A stretch of DNA of 64,000 nt from Escherichia coli (GTDB taxonomy: Bacteria > Pseudomonadota > Gammaproteobacteria > Enterobacterales > Enterobacteriaceae). The position numbers were made by a program, and so were the translations under genes. The stretch is taken from NCBI RefSeq assembly GCF_030013205.1, contig NZ_CP122648.1, one strand, 5' to 3'. The notes below the pieces were generated by a model, which did no database searches, was not told the DNA's origin, and saw nothing but the letters and a program-made list of their open reading frames with translations. Of the stretch, positions 1 to 56,207 are shown one piece after another. Numbering within the stretch: position 1 is the stretch's first letter; the number at the start of each line of letters is the position of its first letter.

Positions 1-505
1 TTACGATCAAGTTATGGATAACAAAGGGTTACTCATCGCTGGTGCTTCAATAGTTGCTGGAGTTGTTCTGGGAAGAATGAGATTCCCTGATTTGGAATCA
101 CTTGAGCATTTCGGAGCCAGAGGAGCAGTATCAGGAAGACCATTTAATCCCGACCTTGCCGGTGGTCCAATTGAAAACCTGACGATAGATGGCGTAACAA
201 TCAACAGGGAAGGTATCGCTATTGTTGAAAAGCATATCTCCAGATTTGATCATGATCCAGCTAATGATGTAATCATTTCAAGGCTAAAGAAAATAGCAAA
301 TAAAGAATTGCTTCCTGAAAAATACGATCTGAACTACTATACTCATCAATGTCGCGAGTATCAGCGTTATTGTAATTTAGGATGGGAAACAGGTGAACCG
401 AAAGGTTTAGATGGATATGAATTATGGAATAATGTACATACTGCAACTCTAGAAGACTTTAAAATTAAAGATACTGACTTATTTCATCCGGATGCAAAAA
501 AATGA
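1..505 (+). CDS. 3' fragment of a larger ORF (reading frame open to window edge); candidate C-terminal toxin domain of a polymorphic toxin (CdiA/Rhs-type)
   Basis: Frame is open from position 2 so the true start lies upstream of the window; hydrophobic stretch then a soluble C-terminal domain; stop overlaps start of next ORF (ATGA at 502-505); I do not recognise the domain family. Confidence 0.35.
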   Translation, partial: YDQVMDNKGLLIAGASIVAGVVLGRMRFPDLESLEHFGARGAVSGRPFNPDLAGGPIENLTIDGVTINREGIAIVEKHISRFDHDPANDVIISRLKKIANKELLPEKYDLNYYTHQCREYQRYCNLGWETGEPKGLDGYELWNNVHTATLEDFKIKDTDLFHPDAKK

Positions 506-759
506 CGATTACGATAGTTGAATTTAACGTACTGAAAGTTATGGCTGAGAAAGATATTGACTGGAGCTGGATGGTGCTGGATCGTACTTTAGCTATACGA
601 AATATTCCAGGATTTGGCAACGTAGCGAATATCGTAACAAAGCTGGTTAATCATGGGTTGGTTGATATCGTAAATGGTGAGGGCAACTCTAGACCACGCT
701 ACAGAGTTTCTCAATATGGATTGAATCTTATCAAAGAACAACAAGACAACCTCTTCTGA
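502..759 (+). CDS. small 85-aa protein, candidate immunity protein
   Basis: ATG overlaps upstream stop (ATGA); about 60 percent identical by eye to the next ORF over the shared core NVL-VM-EKDI-W-WM-LDRTL-IR-IPGFGNV-NIV-KL. Confidence 0.35.
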   Translation: MTITIVEFNVLKVMAEKDIDWSWMVLDRTLAIRNIPGFGNVANIVTKLVNHGLVDIVNGEGNSRPRYRVSQYGLNLIKEQQDNLF

Positions 760-12264: not shown

Positions 12265-13155
12265 ATGGATGCAAAACAAACGCGGCAGGGCGTATTACTC
12301 GCTCTTGCCGCTTATTTTATTTGGGGTATTGCGCCAGCGTACTTCAAGCTGATTTACTACGTGCCCGCCGATGAGATCCTGACGCATCGCGTGATCTGGT
12401 CGTTTTTCTTTATGGTGGTGCTGATGAGCATCTGCCGCCAGTGGTCCTATTTAAAAACGCTGATTCAGACGCCACAGAAAATTTTTATGCTGGCAGTCTC
12501 TGCCGTGCTGATTGGTGGCAACTGGCTACTGTTTATCTGGGCGGTGAACAATCACCATATGCTGGAAGCGAGCCTTGGTTACTTTATTAACCCGCTGGTG
12601 AACATTGTGCTGGGGATGATTTTCCTCGGCGAGCGATTCCGCCGGATGCAATGGCTGGCGGTGATTCTGGCGATATGTGGCGTGTTGGTTCAGTTGTGGA
12701 CTTTTGGTTCACTACCGATTATCGCGCTGGGGCTGGCGTTTAGTTTTGCCTTCTACGGCCTGGTACGCAAGAAGATTGCTGTTGAAGCGCAAACCGGCAT
12801 GTTAATCGAAACTATGTGGTTGCTGCCCGTGGCGGCGATTTACCTGTTTGCTATTGCCGACAGCTCAACCAGCCATATGGGGCAAAACCCGATTTCACTG
12901 AATTTACTGCTGATCGCCGCCGGGATTGTCACTACCGTACCGCTGTTGTGTTTTACTGCGGCTGCGACACGCCTGCGTCTCTCAACGTTAGGCTTTTTTC
13001 AGTACATTGGCCCGACGCTGATGTTCCTGCTGGCTGTGACGTTTTATGGTGAAAAACCGGGTGCCGATAAGATGGTGACCTTCGCCTTTATTTGGGTGGC
13101 GCTGGCAATTTTTGTGATGGATGCGATTTATACGCAGCGTAGAACGTCCAAATAA
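12265..13155 (+). CDS. rarD: EamA/DMT-family membrane protein
   Basis: 296 aa, polytopic membrane protein; conserved position next to yigI. Confidence 0.85.
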   Translation: MDAKQTRQGVLLALAAYFIWGIAPAYFKLIYYVPADEILTHRVIWSFFFMVVLMSICRQWSYLKTLIQTPQKIFMLAVSAVLIGGNWLLFIWAVNNHHMLEASLGYFINPLVNIVLGMIFLGERFRRMQWLAVILAICGVLVQLWTFGSLPIIALGLAFSFAFYGLVRKKIAVEAQTGMLIETMWLLPVAAIYLFAIADSSTSHMGQNPISLNLLLIAAGIVTTVPLLCFTAAATRLRLSTLGFFQYIGPTLMFLLAVTFYGEKPGADKMVTFAFIWVALAIFVMDAIYTQRRTSK

Positions 13156-13465
13156 AAAATAAATATATTCTGAAAAAATATGCCGACTCTTGCATGAGAG
13201 TGGGCATATTGCCATGCTGACAGGAGACTCACATAAGGAAAGGCAGAATTTCCAGACGTCGTTGTATATTTTCATTTGCTTTAATAAATTTCATTTTTAG
13301 TAAATTCAGCATTATGTTATTAGCGATGAGCAAGACCAATCATTAACCAAGCTCTCTTCAGAATGTAATGAAAAATGTGAAGTGCATTTCTTTTTTAAAA
13401 TTTTTTTACCCTATTATTTCTTATCAAATTAACATTGCCCTTAATTATAAGAAAGGAGAATATAA

Positions 13466-14314
13466 ATGAACAACATATTAGGCTCATCAATTAATATGCC
13501 CTGTACACTTTTCGAAACTATTACTTTATTCGATGATTTTTCTGCTGATGATATGCAATATGGGGATATGGAAGAACAAGATTTTCTCTCACTCGGCTTA
13601 AGCGACATCTCTGCAAAAGTTGATCCTTACCGCCTCATTAAATACCATTTTCCTGGGCCGAATTCTACTTATGGTGCTTTTAGTGTTCCAACTTCCGGAA
13701 CAAAAATATCACAAAGTGAATGTATTGATATTTTATTTGCAGAAATGAAAGATCTGGCAAAAATGTTTTCCTTTTTTGGACAATACAAAACACTCATCCA
13801 GGATCTGATTGATCATTTTAGATATGGAAATGGCAACAGTTTCCATAGCCAGGAATTGAACTTATCTTTTCATGAACGAATAAACAAATATGATTATAAT
13901 AGCCCAATACGTGTAATCAAAGAATGTATCGAAAATAATATTTCTTCAACACCTACGATAGGATACCGGCCTCTTCTCCTACAAAAGATTAAGATCGAAT
14001 TACTTTCATCAAGACTAAATAAATTCAATGATTTTAAAGATAATTTTAATGGCCTGGGAATCAGCATTCATGATATCTCAGCTCAAAAAATCTCTCTTTT
14101 AAATTTTCAAAAATATCCTATGGGCTGGAGCGCTACCATTCATTTCATAGCACAAGACCACTTTGGTTTGGATGTAACTGATATAAAAAACAAGACTTAC
14201 AGCAAATATAGATTTTTTCGCATATGGTTCTTTTTACAACGGCATAAAGACTTTGCTTTCAAACCTTTTTTCACCAATTTTAACACTATCGAAAGAATCG
14301 AAAATTATCTATGA
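13466..14314 (+). CDS. hypothetical soluble 282-aa protein, no signal peptide; accessory, AT-rich
   Basis: Clean ORF in visibly AT-rich DNA; Lys/Asn/Ile-rich AT-type codon usage; stop overlaps next start (ATGA at 14311-14314); may be DUF3289-like, from memory only. Confidence 0.6.
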   Translation: MNNILGSSINMPCTLFETITLFDDFSADDMQYGDMEEQDFLSLGLSDISAKVDPYRLIKYHFPGPNSTYGAFSVPTSGTKISQSECIDILFAEMKDLAKMFSFFGQYKTLIQDLIDHFRYGNGNSFHSQELNLSFHERINKYDYNSPIRVIKECIENNISSTPTIGYRPLLLQKIKIELLSSRLNKFNDFKDNFNGLGISIHDISAQKISLLNFQKYPMGWSATIHFIAQDHFGLDVTDIKNKTYSKYRFFRIWFFLQRHKDFAFKPFFTNFNTIERIENYL

Positions 14315-14802
14315 AAAGTAAACTCCAGAAAATTATATTATGTTTATTTCTTCTATGCTGCATCTATAATTTATGGACATTGCGTCCTGTACAGATTTTG
14401 TATACATACTCTGATGCTGGCAATTCAGTCTTTCTGGTCGTTGATCATCTGCCATGGACTGACAGCGATAAAATAAATTGGTATCTGAAGCATCAGAATG
14501 AAATTAAAAATCAACATCCCCTACCAGAAGGTAGTTGGCATACCTGGTATGTCATTGATATCGGTAATGGCTTCACTGACTATAAAAAATATATCGAAGG
14601 GCCGTATGAAGATCTCTACTGTTTCCCGACAATTAAGAGCAATGATAATTGCATCGTGAAAAATTACTTAATGGTTATTAATGAATACCCTTATCGTAAC
14701 ACTCATATTGGTATTAACGATTTTACTGAGTATCAATTAACACAAGAAAATAAAATAGAGCGAGTTTTCAATCCGCATGACTTTAAAAAAGACAATTTTT
14801 AG
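14311..14802 (+). CDS. hypothetical 163-aa protein with N-terminal membrane anchor or signal (KIILCLFLLCCIYNLW); candidate periplasmic partner or immunity protein
   Basis: Translationally coupled to upstream ORF; one N-terminal hydrophobic segment then soluble domain; may be DUF943-like, from memory only. Confidence 0.6.
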   Translation: MKSKLQKIILCLFLLCCIYNLWTLRPVQILYTYSDAGNSVFLVVDHLPWTDSDKINWYLKHQNEIKNQHPLPEGSWHTWYVIDIGNGFTDYKKYIEGPYEDLYCFPTIKSNDNCIVKNYLMVINEYPYRNTHIGINDFTEYQLTQENKIERVFNPHDFKKDNF

Positions 14803-14807
14803 AAATA

Positions 14808-14838
14808 AGCCGGATAAAAAATAGCTTTATCCGGCACT
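14808..14838. terminator. hairpin between convergent cassette and corA (gccggataaaaaatagctttatccggc)
   Basis: Perfect 10-bp stem read directly; sits between two convergent stop codons. Confidence 0.5.
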
Positions 14839-14842
14839 CATA

Positions 14843-15793
14843 TTACAACCAGTTCTTCCGCTTAAAGTACAGATACGGTGCCAGGCCCGCGAGGATCATA
14901 AAGATAATCGCGCCTGGGTAGCCGAAACTCCACTTCAGTTCTGGCATAAACTCAAAGTTCATCCCGTAGCTGGAAGCAACCAGTGTTGGCGGCAGGAACA
15001 CGACGGATACCACCGAGAAGATTTTGATGATGCGGTTCTGCTCGATGTTGATAAAGCCCATCGCCGCCTGCATCAGGAAGTTCACCTTCTGGAACAGAGA
15101 TTCGTTATGCGGCAGCAGGGATTCGATATCTCGCAGGATTTCACGCGCCTGCTCTAGTTGCCCGCCCGGTAAACGCGCCTTACGCACCAGGAAGTTGAGC
15201 GCACGCTGGGTATCCATCAGACACAGGCGAACTTTCCAGCCGATATCTTCCAGTTCCGCCAGCGTGGAGAGCGCCTCGTCGTACTCATCGCCCTGATGCC
15301 CTTCCATAATTACCCGGCTCAACTGCTCCAGGTCGCTGTAGATATTTTCAATTTCATCTGCCAACTGTTCGATTTTGGTTTCGAACAGATCCAGCAGCAG
15401 CTCGTAGGCATTACCGTCTACCATCGACTGGCTACGGGCACGCATACGATATAGACGAAAAGCGGGCAGTTCCCGCTCACGCAGAGTAAACAGACGACCA
15501 TCACGGATGGTAAATGCCACAGTGGAGTTACCGGCGTGATCTTCCGCATCTTCAAAGAAGAAGAAGGAGTGAATATGCAGGCCGTCATCGTCTTCAAAGA
15601 AACGTGCCGATGCTTCGATGTCTTCCAGTTCCGGGCGGGTTGCCAGGCTCTGGCCAAGTTCAGATTGTACGCGCAGTCGCTCGTCGTCGTCCGGTTCGAC
15701 AAGATCAATCCATACTGCATTTACAAGGGGTTGTGACTCTTCGACTTCCAGCCGGGTCAGTCGGTTATTTTCCAGTTGAAATGCGCTCAGCAT
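14843..15793 (-). CDS. corA: Mg2+/Co2+ transporter CorA
   Basis: ORF track gives 321 aa; trimmed to MLSAFQLEN start (316 aa); GMN motif (YGMNF) and C-terminal TM helices. Confidence 0.93.
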
Positions 15794-17009: not shown

Positions 17010-17912
17010 ATGAAAAAAACGCTCGCAACGTTATTTTTATTAACGTGTCTGGGATCATCATCCGCCTATGCGGATAACGCTTTGATTTTACAAACTGATT
17101 TTAGCCTGAAAGATGGTGCCGTCTCGGCGATGAAAGGGGTCGCATTCGGCGTTGACCATAATCTTAAAATCTTTGATTTAACACACGAAATTCCACCGTA
17201 TAACATCTGGGAAGGCGCTTATCGCCTGTATCAGACTGCCAGTTACTGGCCGCAAGGTTCGGTGTTTGTTAGCGTGGTCGATCCGGGCGTAGGCACTGAC
17301 CGTAAATCGGTAGTGCTGAAAACCAAAAACGGTCAATACTTCGTTTCACCAGATAACGGTACGCTCACTTTGGTGGCACAAACTCTGGGTATTGATAGCG
17401 TCCGGGAAATCGACGAAAAAGCTAACCGCCTGAAAGGTTCTGAAAAGTCATATACCTTCCATGGTCGCGATGTATATGCCTACACTGGTGCGCGTCTGGC
17501 TTCCGGAGCGATTACGTTCGAACAGGTGGGGCCAGAGCTTCCTGCAAAAGTTGTCGAACTTTCTTATCAGAAAGCAAAAGCAACAAAAGGTGAAGTGAAG
17601 GGCAATATCCCGATTCTCGATATTCAGTACGGCAACGTCTGGAGCAATATCAGCGACGAGTTGCTGAATCAGGCAGGAATCAAACTCAACGACACGTTGT
17701 GTGTGACCATTTCCGAAGGTTCCCAGCAAAAATACGCAGGGAAAATGCCGTATGTCGCAAGCTTCGGCGATGTGCCGGAAGGCCAGCCGATGGTGTATCT
17801 GAACAGCTTATTGAATGTTTCCGTGGCGCTGAATATGGATAATTTTGCGCAGAAACATCAGGTTGCGTCTGGTGCTGACTGGAATATTGATGTGAAGAAG
17901 TGCGCTAAGTAA
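17010..17912 (+). CDS. DUF62-family protein (SAM hydroxide adenosyltransferase / fluorinase-chlorinase fold) with Sec signal peptide
   Basis: 300 aa; signal MKKTLATLFLLTCLGSSSAYA; blocks LILQTDF, VVDPGVGTDRKSVVL, YFVSPDNGTL, DIQYGNVWSNI and VYLNS parallel the DUF62/fluorinase family as I recall it. Confidence 0.65.
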   Translation: MKKTLATLFLLTCLGSSSAYADNALILQTDFSLKDGAVSAMKGVAFGVDHNLKIFDLTHEIPPYNIWEGAYRLYQTASYWPQGSVFVSVVDPGVGTDRKSVVLKTKNGQYFVSPDNGTLTLVAQTLGIDSVREIDEKANRLKGSEKSYTFHGRDVYAYTGARLASGAITFEQVGPELPAKVVELSYQKAKATKGEVKGNIPILDIQYGNVWSNISDELLNQAGIKLNDTLCVTISEGSQQKYAGKMPYVASFGDVPEGQPMVYLNSLLNVSVALNMDNFAQKHQVASGADWNIDVKKCAK

Positions 17913-23580: not shown

Positions 23581-24045
23581 TATGGATTGCCTGTAAAGTT
23601 CATCGCTTTCTGCTTTCTATCATCGCAGGAGAAGGCGTAAAAGCAAGCGTTTAGCGACTCTTTATGAAGTCTGAAAAGTGAGGAAATGCTGCGAGTATAA
23701 CGCTTACTCGTGGCGATTTATGTTTTGCTGGTAGTTTCGTGATCGGCACCTCGCGCCAGGATGGCTTTATGCACTATCGCAATGTGGTTTGTTTGTTGGC
23801 TTGTTCGTTGTTTTTATCGTCGGCATGGGGATGTCGGCTTGATGAGCGGAACATAATATTTACCAGAAACAGGGAAAAGGCGTGGTGTATTTGCGCCCTT
23901 ATGAAAAGACCAATCTTTCGCTATATAGAGACATTATTATTCCGTTGACGGATGAATCATGCCAGAACGCAGCAGACGAGCAAACTTTGAAGCCCTGACC
24001 CCATGCCGCTATACTGCCGCCATCACTTAAAAACAGGATACAACA

Positions 24046-55683: not shown

Positions 55684-56133
55684 GTGGCGATTAATTTCAG
55701 CCCCAAGGTTGGTGAAATACTGGAATGCAACTTTGGTAACTATCCTGTTAGCCAGAATGGACAGTTCAGCACGACGTATTACGATGGCCGCATTCCACCT
55801 GAGATGATAAAAAATAGGTTGGTTGTCGTGCTCAACGGAAAAATTAATGGCAACGCATGTATCGTCGTTCCATTATCAACCACTCGCGACCATGACAAGT
55901 TAAATCGTGGAATGCATGTTGAAATAGCCAGTAATGTTATCAATGACCTGCAATTCTTTGATCAGCAGATACGTTGGGCTAAAGCCGACCTGGTACAACA
56001 AGTCAGTCGAAACCGATTAAACAGAGCAAGGACTTATCGGGGGTATCTTAATCAATGTTTGCCACATGAGTTGGTTGCAGACATACAGAGGGCAGTCATC
56101 AAGTCAATCAATGCCATATCGCTCATAAATTGA
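55684..56133 (+). CDS. yifN: PemK/MazF-fold protein (toxin-like), no adjacent antitoxin ORF
   Basis: GTG start 8 nt after AGGAG; motif RLVVVLNGKINGNACIVVPLSTT resembles the MazF/PemK core; same position as K-12 yifN. Confidence 0.55.
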   Translation: MAINFSPKVGEILECNFGNYPVSQNGQFSTTYYDGRIPPEMIKNRLVVVLNGKINGNACIVVPLSTTRDHDKLNRGMHVEIASNVINDLQFFDQQIRWAKADLVQQVSRNRLNRARTYRGYLNQCLPHELVADIQRAVIKSINAISLIN

Positions 56134-56207
56134 CAATAAAATCACCATCCCCGATAATGACTCTGTAGCCCATAGAGGCCCTAAGTTTTCTCCCCTTGAG
56201 GGACCTG

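What the first reader, a model, noticed from the sequence alone, without database searches (positions are those of the whole stretch)
13156..14842. AT-rich, translationally coupled two-gene cassette between rarD and corA
The DNA between rarD and corA is visibly much more AT-rich than the flanking core genes and carries two ORFs joined by an ATGA stop/start overlap. The first is a 282-aa soluble protein with no signal peptide; the second is a 163-aa protein with a single N-terminal hydrophobic anchor. In K-12, as I recall, this position holds two small inner-membrane genes (yigF, yigG, about 126 aa each), which these do not resemble in size or topology. A secretion-signal-less soluble protein coupled to a membrane-anchored small protein is what a contact-dependent or T6SS-type effector/immunity pair would look like, though no secretion apparatus is visible in the window. 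I have a tentative memory that the pair resembles DUF3289/DUF943 couples seen in Enterobacteriaceae, but cannot confirm it. I could not place either protein in a known functional family.
Basis: partly seen in the sequence, partly recalled or inferred. Interest (0 to 1): 0.75.

Follow-up and report, generated by a model that had tools for sequence, protein, structure and literature searches.

The report
Orphan T6SS-type toxin–immunity gene pair
The AT-rich two-gene insert between rarD and corA is a DUF3289 toxin gene coupled to a DUF943 membrane-anchored immunity gene, a pair already described since 2024 as a type VI secretion antibacterial weapon, so it is a real but largely explained accessory cassette carried by about half of E. 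coli.

Summary
Window 13466-14314 (282 aa) and 14311-14802 (163 aa) overlap by ATGA. They lie in DNA of 30-36% GC between rarD and corA, which are about 50% GC.

Published work on relatives shows three things: periplasmic toxicity with cell rounding, rescue by DUF943, and T6SS-dependent delivery of an orphan DUF3289 effector.

My tests agree:
- 110 of 111 DUF3289 copies in Enterobacterales are followed by a DUF943 gene.
- Relatives are fused to PAAR or Hcp.

New locus details:
- The cassette is in 2624 of 5426 complete E. coli genomes.
- It entered beside corA, leaving a corA 3' duplicate in some strains.
- In this window yigG, yigF and that duplicate were later deleted.
- ORF1 is a recombinant mosaic.
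- The host strain's aspV T6SS cluster looks degraded.

Verdict: new member of a known kind, modest interest.

The parts
13156..13239 (+). rarD-distal spacer shared with K-12; core DNA, not part of the insert
   Evidence: blastn: window 12265-13239 matches K-12 (L004) 866-1840 at 97%
13248..13298 (+). 51-bp remnant of the 5' part of yigG, with no start codon left; a scar of the deletion that removed the rest of yigG, yigF and the duplicated corA 3' fragment
   Evidence: matches L004 1887-1937 inside yigG (1851-2231) at 94%
13300..13465 (+). AT-rich leader of the cassette (GC about 0.30) with Shine-Dalgarno AAGGAG at 13453-13458; the promoter is not identified
   Evidence: collinear with L002 2832-3000, just after the corA' fragment; sequence; promoter-like hits are no more frequent than in shuffles
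13466..14314 (+). ORF1, 282 aa: stand-alone DUF3289 / YPO3983-family toxin (effector). Conserved motif Q230-D-H-F-G-L-D236-x-x-D239 plus H117, H202-D203, W254, Q258
13300..14196 (+). Divergent haplotype block: leader plus ORF1 codons 1 to about 243, 12-15% different from the other common E. coli allele
   Evidence: 60-nt mismatch profile against L002, with a sharp change at about 14196/14197; ORF1 dS 0.395 against 0.10-0.13 for the flanking genes
14311..14802 (+). ORF2, 163 aa: DUF943 immunity protein. N-terminal membrane anchor (about residues 8-26) and a periplasmic domain with invariant Cys104 and Cys114
14809..14835 (.). 11-bp-stem hairpin between the convergent stops of ORF2 and corA; the T-run lies on the corA side. 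Likely terminator
   Evidence: terminator scan; the sequence is part of the inserted block and absent from K-12
14843..14979 (-). 3' end of corA. The same 137-147 bp also occurs as a second, truncated copy (corA') on the other side of the cassette in strains that keep yigG-yigF or an O157-type filler. It marks the insertion boundary
   Evidence: annotated corA pseudogene fragments; window 14843-14979 also matches L002 2668-2804 at 99%

Best explanation
The interval carries an orphan antibacterial effector-immunity cassette of the DUF3289/DUF943 family.

ORF1 is a cytoplasmically made enzyme with no signal peptide. It is harmless to its producer until it is injected into the periplasm of a neighbouring Gram-negative cell, most likely as cargo of a type VI secretion system. 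There it damages the cell wall. The chemistry is unsettled: either direct peptidoglycan hydrolysis or cleavage of a peptidoglycan precursor in the manner of colicin M.

ORF2 is translationally coupled to ORF1 and anchored in the inner membrane by one N-terminal helix. Its disulfide-bonded domain faces the periplasm, where it binds and blocks incoming toxin from sister cells.

Shown here:
- family membership of both proteins
- near-obligate gene pairing
- fusion of relatives to PAAR or Hcp and to peptidoglycan-binding domains
- fold matches of both proteins to both chains of a T6SS effector-immunity crystal
- the history of the locus

Taken from the literature on relatives: periplasmic toxicity, rescue by DUF943, and T6SS-dependent secretion.

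Inferred: that this stand-alone E. coli protein is itself loaded on a T6SS. In this strain, whose aspV T6SS cluster looks degraded, the pair may now serve mainly as immunity.
For: Family: DUF3289 E 9.5e-83, TIGR03034 396 bits, DUF943 E 1.8e-26.

Pairing: 110 of 111 DUF3289 copies in 73 Enterobacterales loci have a DUF943-like ORF within 400 nt downstream. The single exception is cut by a contig end. Tandem E-I arrays and extra orphan immunity genes are common.

T6SS link:
- PAAR-DUF3289 fusions followed by DUF943.
- Of 37 longer relatives, 10 carry PAAR, 1 DUF4280 and 1 TssD.
- PMC11148199: a Y. pseudotuberculosis PAAR-DUF3289 (T6EC1) encoded in a T6SS operon is toxic in the E. coli periplasm, causes rounding, and is rescued by its DUF943 partner, whose transmembrane segment is 7-26 with a periplasmic remainder.
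- PMC12135965: an orphan DUF3289 protein of A. jandaei is secreted and kills in a T6SS-dependent way.

Cell-wall target: fusions to PG_binding_1, SH3_3, LysM, Peptidase_M23, Peptidase_M14 and an Rv2525c-like glycoside-hydrolase-like domain.

Periplasmic immunity: one N-terminal anchor and two invariant cysteines.

Selection: ORF1 dN/dS is about 0.2 between alleles.

Accessory status: present in 2624 of 5426 complete genomes, low GC3, insertion scar.
Against: - No experiment addresses this E. coli protein.
- It has no PAAR, VgrG, Hcp, MIX, FIX or PIX-type delivery domain that I could recognise. No T6SS gene is adjacent.
- In the strain that matches the window at 99.995% (K_EC180), the aspV T6SS cluster has a tagH pseudogene, a truncated tssH, a VasL fragment, and no annotated tssM, tssA or vgrG. 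Delivery by this strain is therefore doubtful. Other T6SS loci in that genome were not checked.
- The complex prediction could only be judged by pTM (0.72). Neither contacts nor PAE were available.
Confidence: 0.75

Rival explanations
1. Same gene pair, but in this lineage it no longer works as a weapon. With a decayed T6SS the strain keeps the cassette for ORF2 (defence against DUF3289-armed neighbours), and ORF1 is an unused passenger kept by its coupling to ORF2.
For: The K_EC180 aspV T6SS cluster carries pseudogenes (tagH, tssH, VasL fragment, Rhs fragment) and lacks annotated tssM, tssA and vgrG. ORF2 is 98-99% identical between haplotypes whose ORF1 differs by 15%. Orphan DUF943 genes without a toxin are common in other genera.
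Against: ORF1 is intact in both haplotypes, with dN/dS about 0.2. Only one T6SS locus of the genome was inspected. An extended-Hcp module 13 kb away is intact.
Confidence: 0.2
2. The toxin is delivered or released by a route other than T6SS (lysis, vesicles, another secretion system), acting like a bacteriocin or secreted lysin, with ORF2 as its immunity.
For: There is no T6SS delivery domain and no adjacent T6SS gene. Some DUF3289 relatives are fused to VWA, ricin-lectin, Big_2, TSP3 or CBM96 domains rather than to T6SS parts. There is a weak fold resemblance to colicin M-type bacteriocins.
Against: ORF1 has no receptor-binding or translocation domain, no lysis gene and no signal peptide. The closest characterised relatives are T6SS substrates. 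PAAR fusions retain the whole of ORF1's length, residues 8-274.
Confidence: 0.04
3. A type II-like toxin-antitoxin (addiction) or anti-phage defence module acting inside the producing cell.
For: Tightly coupled two-gene layout, AT-rich accessory DNA, patchy distribution.
Against: No PADLOC hit. The immunity protein's bulk is periplasmic with conserved cysteines, while the toxin has no export signal, so the two would not meet inside the producer. A relative is toxic only when sent to the periplasm.
Confidence: 0.01

Closest known systems
T6EC1-T6IC1 of Yersinia pseudotuberculosis IP32881 (DUF3289/DUF943; Mol Syst Biol 2024, PMC11148199)
   Same: The same two Pfam families in the same order. The immunity protein has one N-terminal transmembrane helix and a periplasmic domain. 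The toxin is active in the periplasm and causes cell rounding, and DUF943 rescues. ORF1 aligns over its whole length with such PAAR-fused proteins.
   Different: T6EC1 is a PAAR fusion encoded inside a T6SS operon. The window protein is stand-alone, lies between core genes, and shares only about 37-40% identity with PAAR-fused relatives.
BtpeA CTD-BtpiA complex of Bacteroides fragilis (PDB 9jdi, 9jg8, 9jg9)
   Different: Different phylum. BtpeA is a 608-aa multidomain effector. BtpiA has only 10% identity to ORF2 over the aligned residues. The paper describing BtpeA was not in the searchable library, so its biochemical activity is unknown to me.
Orphan DUF3289 effector of Aeromonas jandaei (WP_042032936.1; PLoS Biol 2025, PMC12135965)
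   Same: An orphan DUF3289 gene away from T6SS clusters with a small downstream immunity gene. T6SS-dependent secretion and killing were shown.
   Different: Its immunity protein is a 95-aa protein with three transmembrane helices, not DUF943. I did not measure its sequence relationship to ORF1.
Colicin M family (ColM, PaeM, syringacin M, pectocins) with immunity protein Cmi
   Same: Periplasm-acting cell-wall toxins neutralised by a membrane-anchored periplasmic immunity protein. Four family structures recur among the best non-family fold hits.

Membership tests
DUF3289 / YPO3983 family (PF11692, TIGR03034) | Full-length match to the family profile above the curated threshold | tested here: met
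   PF11692 E 9.5e-83, model positions 2-270 of 272. TIGR03034 396 bits against a cut-off of 156.
DUF3289 / YPO3983 family (PF11692, TIGR03034) | Conserved core motif (Q-D-H-F-G-L-D-x-x-D, F-R-x-W-F-x-L-Q, K-P-F) | tested here: met
   Invariant or near-invariant in 59 diverse members and present in ORF1. Also present in the crystallised BtpeA.
DUF943 (PF06092) immunity family | Profile match, N-terminal membrane anchor and periplasmic domain | tested here: met
   PF06092 E 1.8e-26, positions 1-150 of 151. Hydrophobic segment at residues 8-26. Invariant Cys104 and Cys114.
Effector-immunity pair (polymorphic toxin logic) | [quoted passage not shown] | tested here: met
   110 of 111 copies are paired. 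Tandem arrays and extra DUF943 genes occur.
Effector-immunity pair (polymorphic toxin logic) | Physical binding of the immunity protein to the toxin | tested here: inconclusive
   The linker-fused AF2 model with 31 paired sequences gave pTM 0.72, above the roughly 0.54 I estimated for undocked domains (my rough calculation), but no PAE or contacts were available. Both halves match the two chains of the 9jdi complex.
Effector-immunity pair (polymorphic toxin logic) | Toxicity of this ORF1 and rescue by this ORF2 | not testable with these tools
   Shown only for a Yersinia relative (PMC11148199).
Type VI secretion effector | Family members covalently fused to T6SS spike or tube proteins | tested here: met
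   PAAR in 10, DUF4280 in 1 and TssD in 1 of 37 longer relatives. PAAR-DUF3289 genes at locus L013.
Type VI secretion effector | This protein carries a recognised delivery domain or lies next to vgrG, hcp, PAAR or an adaptor | tested here: not met
   Only DUF3289 was detected in ORF1. Its neighbours are rarD and corA. The nearest T6SS-related gene is an extended tssD 13 kb away.
Type VI secretion effector | The host genome encodes a complete T6SS | tested here: inconclusive
   The aspV cluster of K_EC180 has tssB, C, E, F, G, J, K, L and hcp. However, tagH, tssH and VasL are pseudogenes or fragments, and no tssM, tssA or vgrG is annotated. The rest of the genome was not inspected.
Type VI secretion effector | T6SS-dependent secretion or killing | not testable with these tools
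   Shown for an A. jandaei DUF3289 protein (PMC12135965), not for E. coli.
Colicin M-like lipid II phosphatase (PF14859) | Sequence or profile similarity and the catalytic motif DxYDx5HR | tested here: not met
   Pfam finds no Colicin_M hit. hhalign of the DUF3289 profile against the ColM-family profile gives probability 0.2%.
Colicin M-like lipid II phosphatase (PF14859) | Shared fold of the catalytic domain | tested here: inconclusive
yigF/yigG (the K-12 occupants of this slot) | Homology to YigG or YigF (DUF2628) | tested here: not met
   Only a 51-bp yigG remnant is left, at 13248-13298. Neither ORF matches yigF or yigG.

The most novel reading that the evidence does not exclude
DUF3289 may not be a colicin M-type lipid II phosphatase at all. 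It may be a distinct His/Asp-motif enzyme that acts directly on peptidoglycan, which would explain its fusions to PG_binding_1, SH3_3, LysM, M23 and M14 domains. The stand-alone Enterobacteriaceae form may also reach the T6SS, or another route, through a loading mechanism not yet described. It has no known delivery domain, yet it is kept intact at a core-genome slot shared by Escherichia, Salmonella and Atlantibacter, even in a strain with a decayed T6SS.
Probability: 0.3. Interest if true: 0.5.

Novelty: new member of a known kind. Interest (0 to 1): 0.3.

Why it matters
About half of complete E. coli genomes, including O157:H7 and many ETEC and commensal strains, carry this pair at a fixed chromosomal site, while K-12 and B strains lack it. 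RefSeq still labels the genes only as 'YPO3983 family' and 'DUF943 family'. Recognising them as a cell-wall-targeting effector and its immunity protein gives three things. It gives a testable determinant of strain-against-strain competition in the gut. It explains why laboratory strains are sensitive test prey. It provides a simple genetic system, stand-alone and 282 aa, for working out the unsettled chemistry of DUF3289 and how orphan cargo effectors without a known delivery domain are loaded. The locus history (insertion scar, later deletion, intragenic recombination) is an ordinary but clean example of how such cassettes move by homologous recombination through flanking core genes.

Tried and rejected
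- PADLOC defence models: no hit for either protein.
- Promoter scan of the leader: 8 promoter-like sites against 9.3 expected by chance, so no promoter can be named.
- Literature searches: 'YPO3983' gave nothing. The PDB codes 9JDI, 9JG8 and 9JG9 gave only irrelevant papers. 'BtpeA' led only to a citing paper, so the activity reported for BtpeA could not be read.
- Colicin M homology by sequence: I verified the ColM sequence against the PDB, collected relatives, dropped frameshifted entries and ran hhalign. No relationship was detected, so I do not file ORF1 as a colicin M family member.
- A position-by-position comparison of the window with K_EC180 gave 15222 mismatches. This was an artefact of two 1-bp indels; blastn shows 99.995% identity.
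- A cross-tabulation of cassette presence against T6SS presence over the 5426 genomes could not be made, because the search tool lists at most 60 records per query.
- The toxin-antitoxin and housekeeping yigFG-like readings were rejected on topology and homology grounds (see the rival explanations).

Full report
**1. Observation**

The ORF list shows rarD at 12265-13155 (+), a 282-aa ORF at 13466-14314 (+), a 163-aa ORF at 14311-14802 (+), and corA on the minus strand from 14843. The sequence shows ATGA at 14311-14314, where the ORF2 start overlaps the ORF1 stop. It also shows an AAGGAG Shine-Dalgarno 7 nt before the ORF1 ATG.

GC is 0.30-0.37 across 13200-14850 against about 0.50 on both sides. 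GC3 is 0.29 and 0.34 for the two ORFs against 0.62 for rarD and corA. ORF1 has no hydrophobic N-terminus. ORF2 has one hydrophobic stretch at about residues 8-26.

**2. Identity of the proteins**

ORF1 is a full-length DUF3289 protein (PF11692, E 9.5e-83) and a YPO3983-family protein (TIGR03034, 396 bits against a cut-off of 156). ORF2 is DUF943 (PF06092, E 1.8e-26). Neither matches a PADLOC defence model.

**3. What is published about the family**

- PMC11148199 (2024) took a PAAR-DUF3289 protein encoded in a T6SS operon of Yersinia pseudotuberculosis (T6EC1). It was toxic to E. coli BL21 when sent to the periplasm and caused cell rounding. Its DUF943 partner (transmembrane segment 7-26, remainder periplasmic) rescued the cells. 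The authors proposed a colicin M-like activity from a Foldseek match to PaeM, and stated that T6SS dependence was not shown.
- PMC12135965 (2025) found an orphan DUF3289 protein in the T6SS-dependent secretome of Aeromonas jandaei and showed T6SS-dependent killing, reversed by a downstream immunity gene.
- A Klebsiella survey linked DUF3289/DUF943 clusters to T6SS.
- PAAR and Enterobacter surveys list DUF3289 as a toxin domain of unknown activity.
- The PDB holds a 2025 crystal structure titled 'type VI secretion system effector-immunity complex BtpeA CTD-BtpiA from Bacteroides fragilis', whose effector chain is named a DUF3289 family protein. I could not find the paper describing it.

**4. 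My own tests of the effector-immunity reading**

*(a) Pairing.* A scan of one genome per species found 389 DUF3289 loci, essentially all in Enterobacterales: Salmonella, Atlantibacter, Enterobacter, Lelliottia, Trabulsiella, Erwinia, Pantoea, Serratia, Yersinia, Tatumella, Kosakonia and others. In the 73 loci retrieved, together with those fetched earlier, 110 of 111 DUF3289 copies are followed within 400 nt by a DUF943-like ORF. The one exception is cut by a contig end. Tandem toxin-immunity arrays and extra immunity genes without a toxin are frequent. These are hallmarks of polymorphic toxin systems.

*(b) T6SS link.* Relatives of about 400 aa are PAAR-DUF3289 fusions followed by DUF943. Among 37 longer family representatives, 10 carry PAAR, one DUF4280 and one TssD.

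*(c) Target.* The same set includes fusions to PG_binding_1 (3), SH3_3 (3), LysM (1), Peptidase_M23 (3), Peptidase_M14 (2) and an Rv2525c-like glycoside-hydrolase-like domain (1). This points to the peptidoglycan layer.

The pTM of 0.72 is higher than the roughly 0.54 I would expect if the two domains were not docked (my rough estimate). Contacts and PAE were not available, so binding is suggested rather than shown.

*(e) Periplasmic immunity.* Two cysteines of ORF2 (Cys104 and Cys114) are invariant in all 31 pairs. This fits a periplasmic disulfide.

**5. The colicin M question**

I checked the ColM sequence against the PDB, built a ColM-family profile and compared it with the DUF3289 profile. 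hhalign gave 0.2% probability, with only 19 C-terminal columns aligned. I therefore do not place ORF1 in the colicin M family.

The mechanism I commit to is 'periplasm-acting cell-wall enzyme'. The fusions to peptidoglycan-binding and peptidoglycan-cleaving domains favour direct action on peptidoglycan. Colicin M-like cleavage of lipid II remains the alternative.

**6. History of the locus**

Of 5426 complete E. coli genomes, 2624 carry at least 80% of window 12900-15100. Four arrangements are seen.

| State | Gene order | Evidence |
|---|---|---|
| K-12 type | rarD-yigG-yigF-corA | |
| ETEC6335 type | rarD-yigG-yigF-corA'-cassette-corA, where corA' is a 147-bp copy of the corA 3' end annotated as a pseudogene |; this junction is in 299 genomes, |
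| O157:H7 type | yigG and yigF replaced by other DNA, corA' retained | |
| Window type | cassette only | deletion junction in 930 genomes, |

In the window, 12265-13239 is collinear with K-12. Positions 13248-13298 are a 51-bp remnant of yigG. From 13300 onward the sequence continues with the DNA that follows corA' in ETEC6335. The cassette was therefore inserted next to corA, leaving a duplicated corA end. In this lineage a deletion of about 0.9 kb then removed most of yigG, all of yigF, and corA'.

The same rarD-cassette-corA arrangement, with 61-64% protein identity, occurs in Salmonella enterica subspecies (L018 arizonae, L053 diarizonae; L008/L009 subspecies not resolved) and in Atlantibacter subterranea, which also has corA and rarD fragments. 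The slot is thus old, or is exchanged through the flanking core genes.

**7. Mosaic allele**

The window was compared with the other common E. coli allele. The leader and ORF1 codons 1 to about 243 (13300-14196) differ by 12-15%. Everything from 14197 through ORF2 and corA differs by 1% or less.

ORF1 has dS 0.395 and dN/dS 0.20, against dS 0.10-0.13 for rarD and corA. ORF2 is 98-99% identical. This indicates a recombination breakpoint just after the conserved DHFGLDxxD motif, and purifying selection on ORF1.

**8. T6SS context of the strain**

The window is 99.995% identical over all 64 kb to E. coli K_EC180.

Its left edge (1-505) is the 3' end of a 377-aa tssD gene. That gene has an Hcp domain (residues 1-147) followed by a 230-aa unannotated extension, and then two small ORFs, all lying between ysgA and metE. 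This is probably another orphan T6SS toxin module.

The aspV T6SS cluster of K_EC180 has tssB, C, E, F, G, J, K, L and hcp. However, tagH has an internal stop, tssH is truncated, only a VasL fragment remains, the Rhs gene is partial, and no tssM, tssA or vgrG is annotated. Whether another T6SS exists elsewhere in the genome was not checked. This keeps open the rival reading that in this strain the pair now serves mainly as immunity.

**9. Verdict**

It is a stand-alone member of the DUF3289/DUF943 effector-immunity family described in 2024-2025, so it is a new member of a known kind rather than a new system.

Three things remain open:
- the chemistry of DUF3289
- how a stand-alone form without a known delivery domain is loaded
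- whether the cassette is used offensively in strains such as this one

Interest is modest (0.3).

Noticed in passing
window 1-505 (+), continuing upstream in K_EC180 (L007 18798-19931); small ORFs at window 502-759 and 834-1079: The 3' end of a 377-aa tssD gene: an Hcp domain (residues 1-147) plus a 230-aa C-terminal extension with no Pfam or NCBIfam match. It is followed by an 85-aa ORF that overlaps its stop by 4 nt and by an 81-aa ORF, all inserted between ysgA and metE. This looks like an 'extended Hcp' toxin with immunity gene(s), a second orphan T6SS module 13 kb from the finding.
   Followed up: partly
K_EC180 chromosome 3953760-3971325 (L089 3761-21326), outside the window: The aspV-linked T6SS cluster appears degraded. 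tagH has an internal stop, tssH lacks its C-terminus and abuts a VasL fragment, the Rhs gene is partial, and no tssM, tssA or vgrG is annotated. An ISAs1 pseudogene and an IS200C lie at the edges.
   Followed up: partly
window 13248-13298: A 51-bp remnant of yigG with no start codon, evidence that yigG-yigF were deleted after the cassette arrived. The same deletion junction is present in 930 complete E. coli genomes.
   Followed up: yes
L002 2668-2814 and L003 2726-2872 (other E. coli strains); L017 5274-5749 (Atlantibacter): Truncated duplicate copies of the corA 3' end sit on the rarD side of the cassette; in Atlantibacter there is also a rarD fragment. These are recombination scars marking the insertion boundary.
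   Followed up: yes
window about 55685-56134 (L006 5685-6134, +), between rep and ppiC: A 149-aa gene annotated as a PemK/MazF-family type II toxin, with no annotated antitoxin next to it and no NCBIfam hit in my scan.
   Followed up: no
window 17010-17912 (+), between yigE and uvrD: A 300-aa secreted-looking protein annotated as SAM hydrolase/SAM-dependent halogenase family. It matches (R)-S-adenosyl-L-methionine hydrolase and fluorinase models only below their curated cut-offs (131 bits against 350).
   Followed up: partly
window 23769-23923 (+), between lptM and cyaY: A frameshifted, truncated DKNYY-family pseudogene is annotated in the matching K_EC180 record.
   Followed up: no
L010 9335-9829; L019, L020, L029, L031, L077 (downstream of the pairs): Runs of two to five DUF943 genes without accompanying toxin genes (orphan immunity arrays) in Enterobacter, Trabulsiella, Lelliottia, Serratia, Tatumella and an Enterobacteriaceae MAG. 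Several genomes (Kosakonia oryziphila, Rosenbergiella gaditana, Winslowiella arboricola) hold five or more DUF3289 loci.
   Followed up: partly
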